A program made the position numbers and the translations under genes. 64,000 nt of DNA, from NCBI GenBank assembly GCA_965224085.1, contig CBDCYI010000005.1:960001-1024000 (forward strand), read 5' to 3'. Shown here piece after piece: positions 6,325 through 12,850 of the stretch (its first letter is position 1; every line of letters begins with the position of its first letter). Origin of the DNA: Candidatus Marinacidobacterales bacterium (GTDB taxonomy: Bacteria; Acidobacteriota; Vicinamibacteria; Marinacidobacterales; SMYC01). The notes beneath the pieces are model-generated. The model did no database searches. It worked only from the letters and a program-made list of their open reading frames with translations, and had not been told where the DNA came from.

Positions 6325-6401
<77 letters not shown>

Positions 6402-8555: not shown

Positions 8556-8830
8556 TGTCCCTTCCACAAATTCGATCCGCGGAGGTGAAGCGCTCTCGCC
8601 CCCGGACTGAGTTCATTTCAATCGCTGCGGGCAGCATTACGGTGAGCGCGGGCTCGAAGCGCGCCCAAGAACGCTGCGCCTCGCGTGCCAGGGATACCAC
8701 GTCAAGCGCAACGAGCTCAAGCAGCGAGACGACCGTAATAATGATGGAGGGCGCCGACCTTGGGAACGACTATCACTCGCCCCATCGAGCGCCGCTGCAC
8801 CGGTCGTGGCTCGGGGGCTGCGTCGAGCCA
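8556..8830 (-). mobile_element. Right end of integrase-core (IS481/IS3-like rve) element, copy 1
   Basis: C-terminus DAAPEPRPVQRRSMGRVIVVPKVGALHHYYGRLAA* then terminus ...GGATCGAATTTGTGGAAGGGACA; near-identical inverted copy at 11600-11831. Confidence 0.75.
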
Positions 8831-8970
8831 TTGACGGTCACCGGTAGCTCCATGGGAGTCTTCTTCAGCCTGGCATTCGCTCTCGAGTATCGTCGAAGGC
8901 GAAGAACCGCCAGAGTGGAAATCCTGGTTCACGTGATCCGAACTGCCGGCTCCCATCAGACGCACAGGCA

Positions 8971-9531
8971 CTAGAGCTCGTCGATACGAGGCAGGCGCGC
9001 CGGGTCGATATCCTTCAATCTCGGTGCGTTTGCGTCTCGCTCCGACAGAATCGGCGTTTTGACTGGCCACTCGATTCCAATATCGGGATCGTTCCACGCG
9101 ACCTCGATGCTGTTCTCCGGATGATAGCTATCAGCGCACTTGATGGTGATGAACGCAGTTTCGCTGACGATGCAGAAAGCATGGGCGAAGCCCGCGGGGA
9201 TATAGACGCGCCGTTTGTTCTCGTAAGAGAGCCCGATTGCAACCCATCGGCCGAAGTTGGGTGAGCCAACCCGCAGATCGACGGCAACATCTAGGACCTC
9301 GCCTTGAACTACATAAGCGATCTTGGCCTGCGGGTTGGGGTTTTGTAGGTGCAATCCACGGATCACGCCACCTCGTGAGAAAGACATGTTGTCCTGGACG
9401 AAGCGATCCCGGATGGACCACTTGCTATAGTGGCGGTAACTGTAAGCTTCCAGGAAGTAGCCCCGGTCGTCTTCCAGAACGTCGGGCTCGATCAATCGAA
9501 CACCCGGCAAAGATGTCTCGATGACCTTCAC
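8971..9531 (-). CDS. rmlC: dTDP-4-dehydrorhamnose 3,5-epimerase
   Basis: DDRGYFLE, VQDNMS, GVIRGLHLQ, DVAVDLRVGSPNFGRW, IPAGFAH, WNDPDIGIEWP. Confidence 0.95.
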   Translation of the reverse strand: MKVIETSLPGVRLIEPDVLEDDRGYFLEAYSYRHYSKWSIRDRFVQDNMSFSRGGVIRGLHLQNPNPQAKIAYVVQGEVLDVAVDLRVGSPNFGRWVAIGLSYENKRRVYIPAGFAHAFCIVSETAFITIKCADSYHPENSIEVAWNDPDIGIEWPVKTPILSERDANAPRLKDIDPARLPRIDEL

Positions 9532-9593
9532 TTCGACACTTTCCTTCCGGCCAACCGCGGTGTGCCACGTTCGGTGCGCAGCAACCCGCGAGT

Positions 9594-10520
9594 CTACTGT
9601 GACGTCCCGGGATCGACAAGACCCCTTTCACGACGTAGCCGTTCGATGAATCCACCCCTTCGGCCGTAGCGCAGGAGATTCATGACTCCCCGTGGATTGA
9701 AGTGGAGAGCGATAGCGGCTCGTTTGATGAGGTTGACGAGGGATCTCTTTAGCAACGCCGCCACTCCGAGATCGAGACTATCGATGGCGTAGTTTCGCGC
9801 GATCGCGGTCGATTCCCGCTCGCGGAAGTCGGGCTCGCTCACGAGGCGGTTGTAGAGCGCCTCGTTTTCTAGGAATTCGCGCTTTGCATAGAGTCCGGGA
9901 CGGTTCGAGCTTTCGACTGCAACCACCGTCAGTTGCGGAATCCCGCGAATCGTCTTCCCCGCCCGCCAGGCGCGGTAGAGCCAGTCGCCCGAGGGCACGT
10001 CGAACGTCTCCCGATAGGAGCGCCAGGGGCCGACCTCCTCTATAGCCTCGCGGCGGATCACCCAGCTTGACGCGCGTACATCCATGTACGGTGCGAACGT
10101 TTGATCGGGGACCACGCTGCTCAGCCAGTTCGGCCCGTCTGCCCTCACTACTTCGACCATGGAAAAAACAACATCCGCCTCGTGGGTTTCCACCTCTCGC
10201 ACACAACTTTCCAAATGATCCGTCAGCCAAAGATCGTCGTGGTTGAGGTACGCGATGTAGCGGCCGCTGGAGCGCCGAAACCCCTCGTTGTTGGGGCCTG
10301 ACTGGTCGCCGACGTTTCGAGGCAAATTTACGAAGCGGATTCTCGGGTCGTCAAAGGAGCTCATGACTTCCTGTGTATCATCGGTGCAAGCGTCTCCCAC
10401 GACCCACAGCTCCCAGTTCTCCACGGTCTGGCGCACCACGGTGTCGATACAGAACGGGAGAATGTTGCTGCGGTTGTAGGTAGCCATGATGACGGAGACC
10501 AAGGGCGACGTATCCTTCAT
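9594..10520 (-). CDS. Glycosyltransferase family 2
   Basis: PLVSVIMATYNR, VVGDACTDDT, YIAYLNHDDLW (DxD-like). Confidence 0.9.
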   Translation of the reverse strand: MKDTSPLVSVIMATYNRSNILPFCIDTVVRQTVENWELWVVGDACTDDTQEVMSSFDDPRIRFVNLPRNVGDQSGPNNEGFRRSSGRYIAYLNHDDLWLTDHLESCVREVETHEADVVFSMVEVVRADGPNWLSSVVPDQTFAPYMDVRASSWVIRREAIEEVGPWRSYRETFDVPSGDWLYRAWRAGKTIRGIPQLTVVAVESSNRPGLYAKREFLENEALYNRLVSEPDFRERESTAIARNYAIDSLDLGVAALLKRSLVNLIKRAAIALHFNPRGVMNLLRYGRRGGFIERLRRERGLVDPGTSQ

Positions 10521-10610
10521 GTCGATCAGCGGGGGCGTTGGGGATGGGATTATAGGCTAGGCTGGCTCCGTTCACCAGTTTTGGCCAATTCGGTACCCGG
10601 ACGGGCCCTG

Positions 10611-11479
10611 GTAGGGTCTCTGGCTGGCGCGGTAGATGTAGGTAAGGGGAGTAGCTGTTGCCGGCGGCTTTCGCCAAGTGCCGGTGCCTCAGTCCTTACC
10701 ATGTCCCCGTTTCCAGCCCCCGCCGCGTCGCACGCAGCATGCGGATTTCCCGCACTACGCGCTCCTGCACACTTCTGGTCAAGGGTTATGTGACCTATCC
10801 TGCGGGGGCAACTGTCGGCGAGAATCCAAAATCGTAGATCCCCCGTCGACTCCATCGCTTCCCGCCAAACTCTTGACGCAATAAAGCACCAGGACGGTTC
10901 GGCCTTCGCCTTGACGTATATCCTTCGTCTCAGCTCCTGCAGACTGACGGATGAGTTTGTCATCTCACCCCTGCCTCACTTGTCGAACGAAGGATCGGTG
11001 TGCAGCAGGGCCCCTTTGCTCCACAGGCGTTACCCCGCTTCAACGCTATTACGGACCCAGCCGCCACCGTCTCGTCTTCAGCCGATTTCCCGGGGGCGCC
11101 GGTTATACGACTTACCTTGCTCCAGACATTTCTGCCTGGGACGAGGACGGCTTCTCCAGTTGCTTGGCATGTCCTTGTCACCGTGCTGTCCCTACCACCC
11201 CGCCGGAGTGGCTCGCCGCGACAGTCAGATTGCGACCAGCCATGCTGCCTTCACCCGAAGAGAGAGGGCTCGGCCTCCGGACCTTTAAATTATCGAGGCC
11301 ACCTGTGGGTTCACTTGCGTTACGGCCCGGTAACTCGCTCACCATCCTAAAGATGGCTTTGTCAGTCAGCTTCTTCCCCTTCGTTTCCTCCACGAACGTG
11401 ACTTAAGCTACGGGGCTTCTGACTCTTGCCCCGGTGGGACTTGTCTCCCACTGAACATGCCAGCCTTCACTGGACGCAC
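10611..11479 (-). ncRNA. Group II intron with internally deleted RT/maturase ORF
   Basis: 5' GTGCG at 11479; domain V-like GCGCGTAGTGCGGGAAATCCGCATGCTGCGTGC; ends ...CCCTAC at 10611; RT stub MTNSSVSLQELRRRIYVKAKAEPSW joined to C-terminal RQEFGGKRWSRR. Confidence 0.88.
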
Positions 11480-11831
11480 TCCCTTTCATTTATTCATCCG
11501 GGCGCGTCGCAGTTGATCGTTCACGCACGGCGGCTCAGCATCCCGGCATGATTTGGGTGTTTCTTCGCTCGCTCATCTTGGCGTTCAAGACTCGTCGCGA
11601 GATGGGGCGAGTGACTGTCGTTCCCAAGGTCGGCGGCCTCCATCACTATCACAGTCGTCTCGCTGCTTGAGCTCGCTGCGCTTGACGCGGTATCCCTGGG
11701 ACACGAGGCGCAGCGTTCCTGGGCGGGCTTCGAGCCCGCGATCACCGTGATGCTGCCCGAAGCGATTGAAATGAACTCAGTCCGGGGCGAGAAGCGCTTT
11801 ACCTCCGCGGATCGAATTTATGGAAGGAACT
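11480..11831 (+). mobile_element. MITE-like internally deleted integrase-core IS; its terminal TG is displaced to 10609-10610 by the intron
   Basis: Left end (TG)TCCCTTTCATTTATTCATCC; 40-aa in-frame N+C fusion 11548-11670 MIWVFLRSLILAFKTRRE|MGRVTVVPKVGGLHHYHSRLAA; right end GGATCGAATTTATGGAAGGAACT. Confidence 0.75.
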
Positions 11832-11952
11832 GGGGAGAGCGATGGCGGAAAAGCAATGTAGTATGCGCAGGTCGGTAGGAGCGAGAGCGGAAAACTGGTA
11901 GCATCTTCCGTCTGGCCGGCTTTTATCACTCTCGAGCGGAAAGGGTACGGAA

Positions 11953-12264
11953 ATGCCCGTCCCGCGATGGTTCGAAGCTACGTTTCTCGAAGCCGAACAG
12001 AGTACCGCTGCTGTCGACTTCACCCATCTTGGAGAACAGTTCGGGCTACGGATCGAGGAAGTAGTACGTCCGCGCGAGCTGAAGAAATGGTGGAGCCTCA
12101 CCAGCGAGTGGGCCGATCCGAAGGCCGTCGAGCCGAATCGCCTCGGCGATACGGAAAGCAAGATCCTGTCCTTTCTCGAGCAAGAATGCAGCGCCTGCAT
12201 GGCCCGCGTCCCCGAGGACAAGCGGGCCGACTTCTTGCGGGGCGTCTGGGCAAAAAGGAACTGA
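11953..12264 (+). CDS. Small hypothetical protein
   Basis: 103-aa ORF with plausible RBS (AAGGG) and protein-like composition. Confidence 0.5.
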   Translation: MPVPRWFEATFLEAEQSTAAVDFTHLGEQFGLRIEEVVRPRELKKWWSLTSEWADPKAVEPNRLGDTESKILSFLEQECSACMARVPEDKRADFLRGVWAKRN

Positions 12265-12850
12265 GCGGGTGCGCTCCATCGCCTAAAGGCGATGGGTTCG
12301 CGGGCGACTAAAGTCGCCTAAAGGCGCACGGCGGAGGATTACTCGCTTACCCTGAACGACTCGTCGTCTTCCGGCAGCCCTCCTTGCAGCTCGATGTACT
12401 TGGCCACAACCTCATCGGTCACGTTTCCGCTCGTCGCTACAAAATAGCCGCGCGCCCACAGGTGCCGACCCCAAAACTTCTTGCGGATCGCTCGAAAATC
12501 ACGCATCAGCTTGTGCGATGTCTTCCCCTTGATCGCCTGCATTACTCGGCTCGGCGACAGCCGTGGCGGCACGCTCAGCAACAGATGAACGTGCTCTGGC
12601 CGTACATGGCCCTTCAGTATTTCTATGTGGTGCGTCGCACAGATCTCTCTTATCAACTCCCGCAGGCGAAGTGCTACATCTCCTCTCAATACCGGCTTGC
12701 GGTACTTCGGGATGAATACGAAATGGTAGTTTAATTGATACGTCGTGTGCGATGATTTCCGATATCCTTTCATCCGGGGATCGTACCGCAAGCCTCCTAA
12801 AGGCTTCGCCTGAAGGCGAGGGGTTTCAACCATCCCCGAGTGAGACACTA
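12262..12850 (-). mobile_element. IS200-type element (tnpA only), ends approximate
   Basis: Subterminal hairpins CTCGCCTTCAGGCGAAG (left) and CGCCTTTAGGCG / CGACTTTAGTCG / CCATCGCCTTTAGGCGATGG (right); no tnpB. Confidence 0.85.
12339..12773 (-). CDS. tnpA: IS200/IS605 Y1 HUH transposase
   Basis: YHFVFIPKYRK, EHVHLL (HUH), LWARGYF, VAKYIE catalytic Tyr. Confidence 0.95.
   Translation of the reverse strand: MKGYRKSSHTTYQLNYHFVFIPKYRKPVLRGDVALRLRELIREICATHHIEILKGHVRPEHVHLLLSVPPRLSPSRVMQAIKGKTSHKLMRDFRAIRKKFWGRHLWARGYFVATSGNVTDEVVAKYIELQGGLPEDDESFRVSE

What the first reader, a model, noticed from the sequence alone, without database searches (positions are those of the whole stretch)
10609..11831. 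RT-less group II intron inserted 2 nt inside the terminal repeat of a MITE-like IS, with a putative EBS1 matching the IS end
Seen: removing the intron (10611-11479, minus) rejoins GGATGAATAAATGAAAGGGA|CA. This aligns with the IS terminus at 8556 (GGATCGAATTTGTGGAAGGGACA) and forms the left end of the 11480-11831 mini-IS. A loop in the intron's 5' region (minus CCC-TCTCTCTTC-GGG, plus 11254-11268) contains UCUCUU, which pairs with the last six exon bases AAGGGA (one G-U). Established: group II introns choose targets by EBS1-IBS1 pairing, and DDE elements need intact terminal dinucleotides. Inference: this intron lineage homes to the conserved end of an IS family, giving it many targets per genome while disabling the host end. 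The uninvaded end at 8556 still has a perfect AAGGGA|C site.
Basis: partly seen in the sequence, partly recalled or inferred. Interest (0 to 1): 0.8.

Follow-up and report, generated by a model that had tools for sequence, protein, structure and literature searches.

The report
Dead intron splitting a transposon's tip
A decayed self-splicing group II intron that has lost its protein gene sits two bases inside the end of a small, broken jumping gene, and its relatives in many other bacteria occupy the same spot, a habit already described once for another intron.

Summary
Window 11479-10611 (minus strand) is an 869-nt group II intron: Rfam D1 match of 113 bits, 5' GUGCG, 3' UAC. Only stubs of its reverse-transcriptase gene remain. 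It splits the left inverted repeat of an internally deleted IS481-like element, TG|TCCCTTTCATT, 2 nt from the tip.

The proposed EBS1 loop is real. In 11 copies with different flanks, the 7-nt loop pairs with the last 7 exon bases at 6.7/7 on average, against 3.35/7 for mismatched combinations.

Of 31 readable 5' junctions in this genome and relatives, 28 lie at ends of two IS481-like end families. One relative (G013) has a full-length copy with an intact 456-aa RT at the same site. More distant RT relatives in other phyla also sit at such IS ends, both left and right.

Caveats:
- The window copy looks dead. No cognate RT is left in the genome, and the D6 branch helix is broken.
- The "MITE" is a single-copy deletion derivative.
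- Only 3 other ends in this genome carry the matching site.

Homing to IS inverted repeats is already published (RmInt2/ISRm17), so this is a new member of a known kind.

The parts
10611..11479 (-). ORF-deleted group II intron, 869 nt (5' GUGCG at 11479-11475; 3' ...GACCCUAC ending at 10611)
   Evidence: Sequence. Rfam RF02003 at 113 bits. 93.7% identical over 868 shared columns to the 2010-nt full-length copy in G013.
11315..11453 (-). Domain I core matched by Rfam group-II-D1D4-4
   Evidence: 113 bits, model positions 1-138 of 138.
11286..11290 (-). EBS2 (AUUUA) in an internal loop; pairs with exon UAAAU (11489-11485)
   Evidence: In register with CAAAAA/UUUUUG in the C4a type and GAAGUC/GACUUC in the C11a type. 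Unpaired columns 40-55 in the consensus fold.
11254..11268 (-). EBS1 hairpin: stem CCC/GGG, 9-nt loop UCUCUCUUC; the 7 pairing bases are 11263-11257
   Evidence: Consensus fold with compensatory stem changes. Cognate pairing 6.7/7 against 3.35/7 non-cognate; 0 of 20000 permutations reached the observed sum.
10883..10963 (-). Stub of the intron-encoded protein: first 27 codons (MTNSSVSLQELRRRIYVKAKAEPSWCF)
   Evidence: Aligns with the N-terminus of the intact 456-aa RT of G013.
10795..10882 (-). Stub of the RT C-terminus (reads ...FGGKRWSRR...SPTVAPAG, stop at 10797-10795). About 1106 nt of ORF are deleted between 10883 and 10882, and 36 nt more inside this stub.
   Evidence: Alignment with the G013 full-length copy. 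The bases flanking the junction form a hairpin (read from the sequence).
10730..10764 (-). Domain V: 9-bp and 4-bp helices, 2-nt bulge on the 3' side, 5-nt loop
   Evidence: Fold at -20.8 kcal/mol, z -2.56. Identical region in relatives, where RF00029 gives 28-32 bits, below the gathering score of 40. No RF00029 hit in the window copy itself.
10612..10724 (-). Unusually long domain VI with an inner hairpin. Branch-point A at 10617. Bases 10621-10619 read AGA where relatives read CCC or CCU, which breaks the basal helix.
   Evidence: Folds: window -48.2 kcal/mol and bulged A lost; G013 -59.2 and C4a -54.3, each with a bulged A 7 nt from the 3' end. Alignment.
10609..10610 (+). Terminal TG of the IS left inverted repeat, cut off from the rest by the intron
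   Evidence: Intact relative L021 starts TGTCCCTTC. In 50 related ends in this genome the flanks diverge right after these 2 nt.
11480..11831 (+). Body of an internally deleted IS481-like element. Contains the left repeat from 11480, a 40-codon in-frame remnant (11548-11670) joining the transposase N- and C-termini, and the right repeat ending ...ATGGAAGGAACT at 11831.
   Evidence: The intact relative encodes a 339-aa rve_3 transposase. Best NCBIfam match is IS481 at 79.5 bits, below the cut-off of 224. No second full-length copy in 21 genomes.
8556..8840 (-). 3' fragment of a related IS (transposase C-terminus plus right inverted repeat). Its uninvaded tip ...GTGGAAGGGA|CA is at 8556. The inner end is approximate.
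   Evidence: 238-nt arm (8557-8794), 89% complementary to 11593-11830. ORF remnant ...MGRVIVVPKVGALHHYYGRLAA..
8971..10520 (-). Neighbouring genes on the intron's strand: family-2 glycosyltransferase (10520-9594, starting 90 nt downstream of the intron) and dTDP-4-dehydrorhamnose 3,5-epimerase (9531-8971)
   Evidence: Pfam PF00535 (E=3.7e-27) and PF00908 (E=6.9e-63).

Best explanation
This is a relic of a retrohoming event. A IIB-like group II intron, whose protein has reverse-transcriptase and maturase domains but no endonuclease, reverse-spliced into the outward-reading strand of the left terminal inverted repeat of an IS481-like insertion sequence.

The site was chosen by base pairing. The EBS1 loop (UCUCUUC) pairs with the last bases of the repeat (AAAGGGA). 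EBS2 (AUUUA) pairs with UAAAU just upstream. The intron therefore went in between ...GGGA and the terminal CA, 2 nt from the point where the transposase cuts.

The lineage as a whole does this. Two sub-lineages carry different EBS1/EBS2 loops, and each sits at the tips of a different IS481-like end family.

Inferred, not shown: the insertion separates the terminal dinucleotide from the repeat and so immobilises that IS end. IS tips make good homing sites because they are conserved, multi-copy, horizontally carried, harmless to the host, and present on both strands.

The window copy later lost about 1.1 kb of its RT gene and picked up changes in the branch-site helix. With no cognate RT left in the genome, it is most likely immobile and probably a poor splicer.
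For: Shown:
- Identity and exact ends of the intron.
- The TG tip lies on the far side of the intron, and the rejoined end equals the left repeat of an intact IS.
- EBS1 is a hairpin loop and covaries with the exon in 11 distinct copies: 6.7/7 against 3.35/7, permutation 0 of 20000. EBS2 covaries in register in three types.
- 28 of 31 readable 5' junctions are at IS ends, with several different upstream contexts.
- 3' exons diverge after 2 nt: 8 of 15 readable start CA, 6 CG, 1 CT; 7 of the 22 examined gave no readable end.
- A full-length copy with an intact 456-aa RT (RVT_1 plus GIIM, FADD, about 30 residues after GIIM) sits at the same site of the same IS family in G013.
- Among RT relatives at 70-83% identity from other phyla, 69 of 80 had a 5' end that could be found. 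Ten of those 69 have a homologous rve transposase in the 5' exon: 7 sense (right end) and 3 antisense (left end).
- Decay of this copy: no cognate RT in the genome except a 214-aa fragment at 68% identity, all others at most 35%; D6 helix broken.
Against: - RF00029 (D5-D6) gives no hit in the window copy even at E<=10 and stays below its gathering score in relatives (28-32 against 40 bits). The D5 and D6 assignments therefore rest on folds and homology.
- No spliced 11480/10610 joint was seen; the RNA data were only metagenome contigs.
- EBS1-IBS1 here is 6/7 with a terminal C-A mismatch.
- Immobilisation of the IS end is untested.
- The transposases fall well below the curated IS481 cut-off, so the family name is loose.
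- The exact tip of the second end family is inferred (2-3 nt beyond the insertion point).
- Some identical upstream contexts across genomes may be inherited copies rather than independent insertions.
- Three junctions are not at IS ends.
Confidence: 0.85

Rival explanations
1. The ORF-less copy is still alive. It splices and is mobilised in trans by one of the other group II intron proteins in the genome, so it behaves as a non-autonomous retroelement that proliferates at IS ends.
For: ORF-less copies with the same deletion junction occur at several loci and in several genomes: the C4a type of about 805-809 nt is in G000, G002 (3 copies), G010 (3), G021 and G033. That suggests ORF-less forms have spread. 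The genome holds 7 identical copies of another intron RT and about 9 of a third. D5 and the exon-binding sites of the window copy are intact.
Against: The other RTs are only 34-42% identical to the cognate type, and maturases are usually specific for their own intron (established knowledge). The window form (869 nt, with its extra 36-nt deletion) is single-copy. Its D6 branch helix is disrupted relative to all relatives. No spliced joint was seen.
Confidence: 0.1
2. The adjacency has the reverse history: the IS transposed next to, or into, a pre-existing intron, and the match of the 2 nt beyond the intron is a coincidence.
For: ISs do land in introns in this genome. A fam2-like IS end abuts position 18 of the C9 copy, and an IS end interrupts D6 of copy C5c.
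Against: The IS tip TG lies on the far side of a complete intron with canonical ends. The same junction recurs at different loci. EBS1 and EBS2 complement the IS end.
Confidence: 0.02
3. Intron and IS end form a composite that moves as one unit by transposition (an IStron-like chimera), so the repeated junctions reflect IS copying rather than intron homing.
For: Some intron-bearing ends share identical upstream context across loci and genomes. For example ...aaggcgacgcaagggtcttgag occurs in G010a, G002b, G002c, G002d and G003c.
Against: The junctions occur in at least ten different upstream contexts, in two end families, and at both left and right ends. The 3' exons differ right after the tip. 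EBS/IBS covariation is what homing predicts and is not needed for co-transposition. An end whose tip sits 0.9-2 kb from its repeat should not be a transposase substrate (established knowledge for DDE enzymes, untested here).
Confidence: 0.05

Closest known systems
[quoted passage not shown] 2014, PMC4615759, passages and section 6 read; Toro et al. 2018, PMC5894124, passages read)
   Same: A group II intron with an endonuclease-less protein uses the inverted repeats of an insertion sequence as its DNA target. This gives two sites per IS on opposite strands. Target choice is by EBS/IBS pairing.
   Different: RmInt2 is ORF class D. The RT here lacks the class D C-terminal motif and is only about 32% identical to the Sinorhizobium hits. 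The host IS is different. Here the habit is seen in several genera and in other phyla, with EBS loops tracking two end families, and with ORF-less derivatives. Where in the repeat RmInt2 inserts is shown in that paper's Fig. S1, which I could not see (supplements closed).
RmInt1 / ISRm2011-2 (passages in PMC5894124 and the abstract of PMC1802570 as listed)
   Same: An endonuclease-less group II intron whose natural homing site is a multi-copy IS. The papers argue that the insertion blocks spread of the IS.
   Different: As I recall, untested here, the RmInt1 target lies inside the IS rather than at its tip. It is class D.
[quoted passage not shown] 2010, PMC2882425, abstract only; twintron section of Zimmerly & Semper 2015, PMC4424553, passages read)
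   Same: Deletion derivatives keep the ribozyme. Nesting of introns in introns is also seen here (C9 locus).
   Different: No evidence here that this copy is mobilised in trans. The deletion leaves a neat hairpin in domain IV.
Class C (IIC) introns that insert after terminator or attC hairpins (recalled; mentioned in PMC4424553 and the abstract of PMC7923331)
   Same: They choose a repeated, non-coding, structurally constrained motif as a safe site. More distant relatives of this RT sit right after D5-like hairpins.
   Different: The intron here uses ordinary EBS1 plus EBS2 pairing to a linear sequence and has a IIB-like domain I.
B.c.I4-type introns with a 3' extension (PMC2691827 and PMC3261151, abstracts only)
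   Same: Unusual extra RNA near the 3' end of the ribozyme.
   Different: Here the extra roughly 75 nt lie inside domain VI, and the branch A keeps its normal distance of 7 nt from the 3' splice site in relatives. It is not a domain added after D6.

Membership tests
Group II intron (ribozyme) | Conserved 5' end GUGYG and 3' end AY | tested here: met
   GUGCG at 11479-11475...CUAC ending at 10611. The same ends occur in relatives.
Group II intron (ribozyme) | Domain I core recognised by a curated covariance model | tested here: met
   RF02003 at 113 bits against a gathering score of 49.
Group II intron (ribozyme) | Domain V hairpin (about 34 nt, 2-nt bulge) recognised by the curated D5-D6 model | tested here: inconclusive
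   The fold gives a D5-like hairpin with a 2-nt 3' bulge. RF00029 gives no hit in the window and 28-32 bits, below 40, in relatives. The base of the helix departs from the usual A-U / G-U pairs (read from the sequence).
Group II intron (ribozyme) | Domain VI with a bulged branch-point A 7-8 nt from the 3' splice site | tested here: inconclusive
   Met in the G013 and C4a copies. In the window copy the A (10617) is present but the helix around it is broken by AGA replacing CCC.
Group II intron (ribozyme) | EBS1/EBS2 complementary to the 5' exon | tested here: met
Mobile group II intron (retroelement) | Intact RT/maturase ORF in domain IV | tested here: not met
   Only 27 N-terminal codons and a short C-terminal stub remain. 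The ORF is intact in the G013 relative.
ORF class D introns (RmInt1/RmInt2) | C-terminal motif LX3AX3PXLF[V/A]HW (quoted from PMC4615759, section 6) | tested here: not met
   A regular-expression search of the 456-aa G013 RT found none. Sinorhizobium plasmid hits are about 26-32% identical.
IS481 family insertion sequence | Single DDE (rve) transposase reaching the curated family score | tested here: not met
   rve_3 is present (44 bits against 26.5). NF033577 is the best match at 79.5 bits, against a cut-off of 224. The element is therefore called 'IS481-like' only.
IS481 family insertion sequence | Inverted repeats starting TGT and ending ACA (recalled family trait) | tested here: met
   L021: TGTCCCTTC... 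and ...GGAAGGCACA. 50 related ends end in CA.
IS481 family insertion sequence | Target-site duplication | tested here: inconclusive
   No clear direct repeat flanks the window element or L021.
MITE | Short non-autonomous element with terminal inverted repeats, present in many copies | tested here: not met
   It is short, has both repeats and has no transposase. No second full-length copy exists in the 21 genomes searched; the matches split into the left and right parts of full-length ISs.

The most novel reading that the evidence does not exclude
An old group II intron clade spans several phyla, and its exon-binding loops co-diversify with the tips of IS481-like insertion sequences. It always enters 2 nt inside the transposase cleavage site because it exploits transposition itself. 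In copy-out-paste-in transposition, a 3'-OH in the flank primes replication into the IS across the tip, using as template the very strand the intron targets. That nascent strand would be the cDNA primer that these endonuclease-less introns cannot make for themselves. The intron would then be a parasite timed to its host transposon's activity, and a natural brake on it.
Probability: 0.12. Interest if true: 0.75.

Novelty: new member of a known kind. Interest (0 to 1): 0.45.

Why it matters
For annotation, this stretch is a dead intron inside a dead IS upstream of two sugar-metabolism genes, with no sign of a host function.

For mobile-element biology, the wider pattern is worth a comparative study. 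A non-class-D intron lineage has made the extreme tips of IS481-like elements its homing niche in several genera and in other phyla. Its EBS1 and EBS2 loops retune to different end families.

That extends the single published case (RmInt2/ISRm17) to a broad, apparently long-lived parasite-on-parasite relationship. It also supplies natural EBS/IBS pairs and an intact donor (G013) for testing two things: how endonuclease-less introns are primed, and whether such insertions restrain IS spread.

Tried and rejected
- RNA evidence for splicing. The run search found 14 RNA or RNA-like runs, each holding at most 0.17 of the sampled words, all marine or other sediment metatranscriptomes. Laying X1, X2, X15 and X17 gave only short contigs, mostly 90-95% alike, which are relatives' intron pieces. 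There was no joint between 10610 and 11480. DNA-like runs X15 and X17 hold the same locus with the intron in place. This says nothing either way about splicing or habitat.
- An Rfam D5-D6 hit in the window. None was found even at E<=10.
- A trans-acting cognate RT in the genome. None was found.
- Whether the mini-IS is a MITE family. It is not, in the 21 genomes searched.
- The exact tip of the second end family from MITE-like pairs. The flanks read CGTCG...CGACG, which is inverted and so part of the repeat. No clear duplication was seen, so the tip is placed 2-3 nt beyond the insertion point by inference only.
- Intron class. It could not be assigned. It is not class D. Class E or F is only a recollection-based guess.
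- Promoter and terminator scan of 10300-12000. Nothing above shuffles.
- Host taxon.
- Literature. Three searches found the RmInt2/ISRm17 precedent and nothing on IS481-like tips. The library lacks most subscription journals, and supplements were closed (Fig. S1 of PMC4615759 bears on the comparison).
- Why the same ORF-deletion junction occurs in the window copy (93.7% identical to the G013 full-length copy) and in the C4a type (81.9%). Recurrent deletion across a hairpin and recombination remain equally open.
Full report
WHAT IS THERE. On the minus strand the window reads ...CCCGGATGAATAAATGAAAGGGA|GUGCGUCCAGUG...GACCCUAC|CAGGGCCC. The intron runs from 11479 to 10611, 869 nt. Rfam's group-II-D1D4-4 model matches 11453-11315(-) over its full length at 113 bits, against a gathering score of 49. 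There is no reverse-transcriptase gene. Only 27 N-terminal codons (10963-10883) and a C-terminal stub (10882-10795) remain, as shown by alignment with a 2010-nt full-length relative. Domain V is a 35-nt hairpin at 10764-10730 with a 2-nt bulge. Domain VI is unusually long, about 113 nt with an inner hairpin, and ends at the 3' splice site. The curated D5-D6 model does not hit the window copy. In relatives it reaches only 28-32 bits against 40, because of the insertion in D6 and an atypical helix base.

THE HOST ELEMENT. An intact relative in the same genome (L021) has the left repeat TGTCCCTTCTATTTATTCATCCGCGG. Its right repeat ends ...GGATCGAGTTTATGGAAGGCACA, and it encodes a 339-aa transposase. 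That transposase has an rve_3 domain. Its best curated match is IS481, but at 79.5 bits against a cut-off of 224, so I call it IS481-like. The window element keeps the left repeat (from 11480). It also keeps a 40-codon in-frame fusion of the transposase N- and C-termini (11548-11670) and the right repeat, which ends ACT at 11831. Its terminal TG lies at 10609-10610, on the other side of the intron. The element at 8556 is only a 3' fragment in the opposite orientation. The 352-bp form has no second full-length copy in 21 genomes, so it is a solo deletion derivative, not a MITE family.

IS THE LOOP EBS1? It puts a second variable stretch in an internal loop upstream. In 11 copies with distinct exons, loop bases 3-9 pair with the last 7 exon bases at 6-7 of 7 positions, mean 6.7. 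Non-cognate combinations average 3.35, and 0 of 20000 permutations reached the observed sum. Examples are UCGUGUC/GACACGA, UCCUAUC/GAUAGGA, UGGUUCC/GGAACCA and UUCGCGA/UCGCGAA. The window pair, UCUCUUC/AAAGGGA, has 6 pairs, one of them G-U. The upstream loop behaves as EBS2 in register: AUUUA/UAAAU here, CAAAAA/UUUUUG in the C4a type and GAAGUC/GACUUC in the C11a type.

DOES THE LINEAGE HOME TO IS ENDS? In the window's genome there are 16 matches to the intron. They include a second ORF-less copy (C4a, 81% identical), fragments, and one copy invaded by a different intron. Fifteen of 41 genomes searched (G000 included) have matches. I fetched 28 5' junction regions from relatives and tabulated them with 5 from this genome. 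Thirty-one of the 33 were readable.
- Six sit at ...ATG(A/G)AAGGGA| ends of the window's IS family. They are the window, G013a, G016a, G033c, G003a and a degenerate G012b.
- Twenty-two sit at ...GTTCGTTTGT(A/G)TTTTTGGACACGA| ends.
- Three sit elsewhere.
The second end type occurs about 45 times uninterrupted in this genome, with consensus ...GGACA-SGACG. It flanks an IS481-like transposase next to C4a. It also forms roughly 120-bp inverted pairs. Introns at the first end type, where readable, carry UCUC(U/C)(C/U)UUC in EBS1. Those at the second carry UCUCGUGUC.

On the 3' side, 15 of 22 regions were readable. Eight start CA, six CG and one CT, and they diverge immediately after. In this genome 50 related ends were listed, and all have diverging flanks right after the terminal CA. 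G013 carries a full-length copy with an intact 456-aa RT at the same site of the same IS family. The G016 copy has a shortened ORF.

Beyond these relatives, 80 loci encoding RTs 70-83% identical were fetched from named genomes of Acidobacteriota, Gemmatimonadota, Pseudomonadota and others. Sixty-nine had a 5' end that could be found. Ten of these have a transposase homologous to the two families in the 5' exon: 7 sense (right end) and 3 antisense (left end). Two further cases were seen by eye. Their EBS1 loops match their own exons. Most of the rest sit directly after a D5-like hairpin.

STATE OF THIS COPY. The genome (95% complete) has no cognate RT apart from a 214-aa fragment at 68% identity. 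Its other intron RTs are at most 35-42% identical. In D6 the window reads AGA (10621-10619) where relatives read CCC or CCU. The predicted basal helix with the bulged branch A is lost, at -48.2 against -59.2 kcal/mol. Only 3 uninvaded ends in the genome read GGGA|CA, whereas 40 of the 50 read GGCA|CA. The end at 8556 pairs 7/7 with EBS1 but only partly with EBS2. I conclude that this copy is a fossil.

MECHANISM. Shown: site choice fits EBS/IBS pairing, and the position is 2 nt from the tip. Inferred: retrohoming without an endonuclease used a replication-derived primer, as established for other En-less introns (passage in PMC4424553). Also inferred: splitting the terminal dinucleotide from the repeat blocks use of that end by the DDE transposase. 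The advantages of IS repeats as targets (two sites per IS, one always on the lagging-strand template) were argued for RmInt2 (PMC4615759, discussion passages).

KNOWN OR NEW. RmInt2 of S. meliloti GR4 lies within the inverted repeats of ISRm17 and was shown to home there (PMC4615759 and PMC5894124, passages read). The present RT lacks the class D motif and is about 32% identical to Sinorhizobium hits. This is therefore a different lineage with the same habit. Three literature searches found no report for IS481-like tips. I file it as a new member of a known kind. The cross-phylum spread and the retuning of EBS loops to two end families are the new parts.

LIMITS. No experiment was done. The RNA data were uninformative. 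Intron class and host taxon were not assigned.

Noticed in passing
L017 (G000:C9:852900-856300), positions 682-2716: [quoted passage not shown] It has an Rfam D1D4-3 match at 27.9 bits, a 458-aa RT and a D5-D6 match at 41 bits. Its RT occurs in 7 identical copies across contigs C4, C5, C9 and C11. A third RT type lies directly beside several of them.
   Followed up: partly
L120, L158, L170, L178 and about 40 more of L102-L181: More distant relatives of this RT (about 70% identity) sit immediately after a D5-like hairpin, ...CCGGAUGCGGGAAAGCUGCACGUCCGG(U/G)U|GUGYG. One alphaproteobacterial MAG has 25 or more such copies. Two loci (L117, L147) sit head-to-tail after another copy's 3' end.
   Followed up: partly
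L004 (G000:C11:1237430-1241009), intron 5' end at 1501; also G010d (L078): A third sub-lineage (EBS1 GU(U/A)UGGG, EBS2 GAAGU(C/U)) is inserted antisense into the stretch that, read in reverse complement by eye, codes for the glycine-rich loop (GEVY) of a Ser/Thr kinase gene. The kinase ORF is at L004:679-1314(-). This is another multi-copy conserved target.
   Followed up: partly
window 10612-10724 (-) and relatives: Domain VI carries an extra inner hairpin of about 75 nt. Its sequence differs between sub-lineages but still pairs: GGUAAGG/CCUUACC against GGUGCGGCUA/UAGGCCGCGCC.
   Followed up: partly
window 10872-10895 (-); C4:1591300 region: The RT deletion has the same junction in the window copy and in the 81%-identical C4a type, and it leaves a hairpin (CUUGGCGC-loop-GCGCCAAG). 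Yet the window copy is 93.7% identical to a full-length relative. Either the deletion recurred across the stem or the lineages recombined. A different ORF-less form of 766 nt exists in G016.
   Followed up: partly
window 8557-8794 and 11593-11830: Two 238-nt IS pieces, 89% complementary, bracket the epimerase gene, the glycosyltransferase gene and the intron in inverted orientation. The arrangement resembles a composite transposon or an inversion.
   Followed up: no
G000:C9:853145-853167 and G000:C5:1978763-1978789: ISs also land in the introns. An IS end abuts position 18 of the C9 copy, and another interrupts D6 of copy C5c.
   Followed up: partly
G000:C5:1982786-1982904; C9:21506-21624; C9:31796-31914; C9:565803-565921: Elements of roughly 120 bp made of two inverted fam2-type ends, present at least 4 times. 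These are better MITE candidates than the window element.
   Followed up: no
window 12339-12848 (-) and 6325-6398 (+): An IS200-like Y1 transposase gene (PF01797, E=1.2e-42) and a tRNA gene (66 bits) lie near the finding.
   Followed up: no
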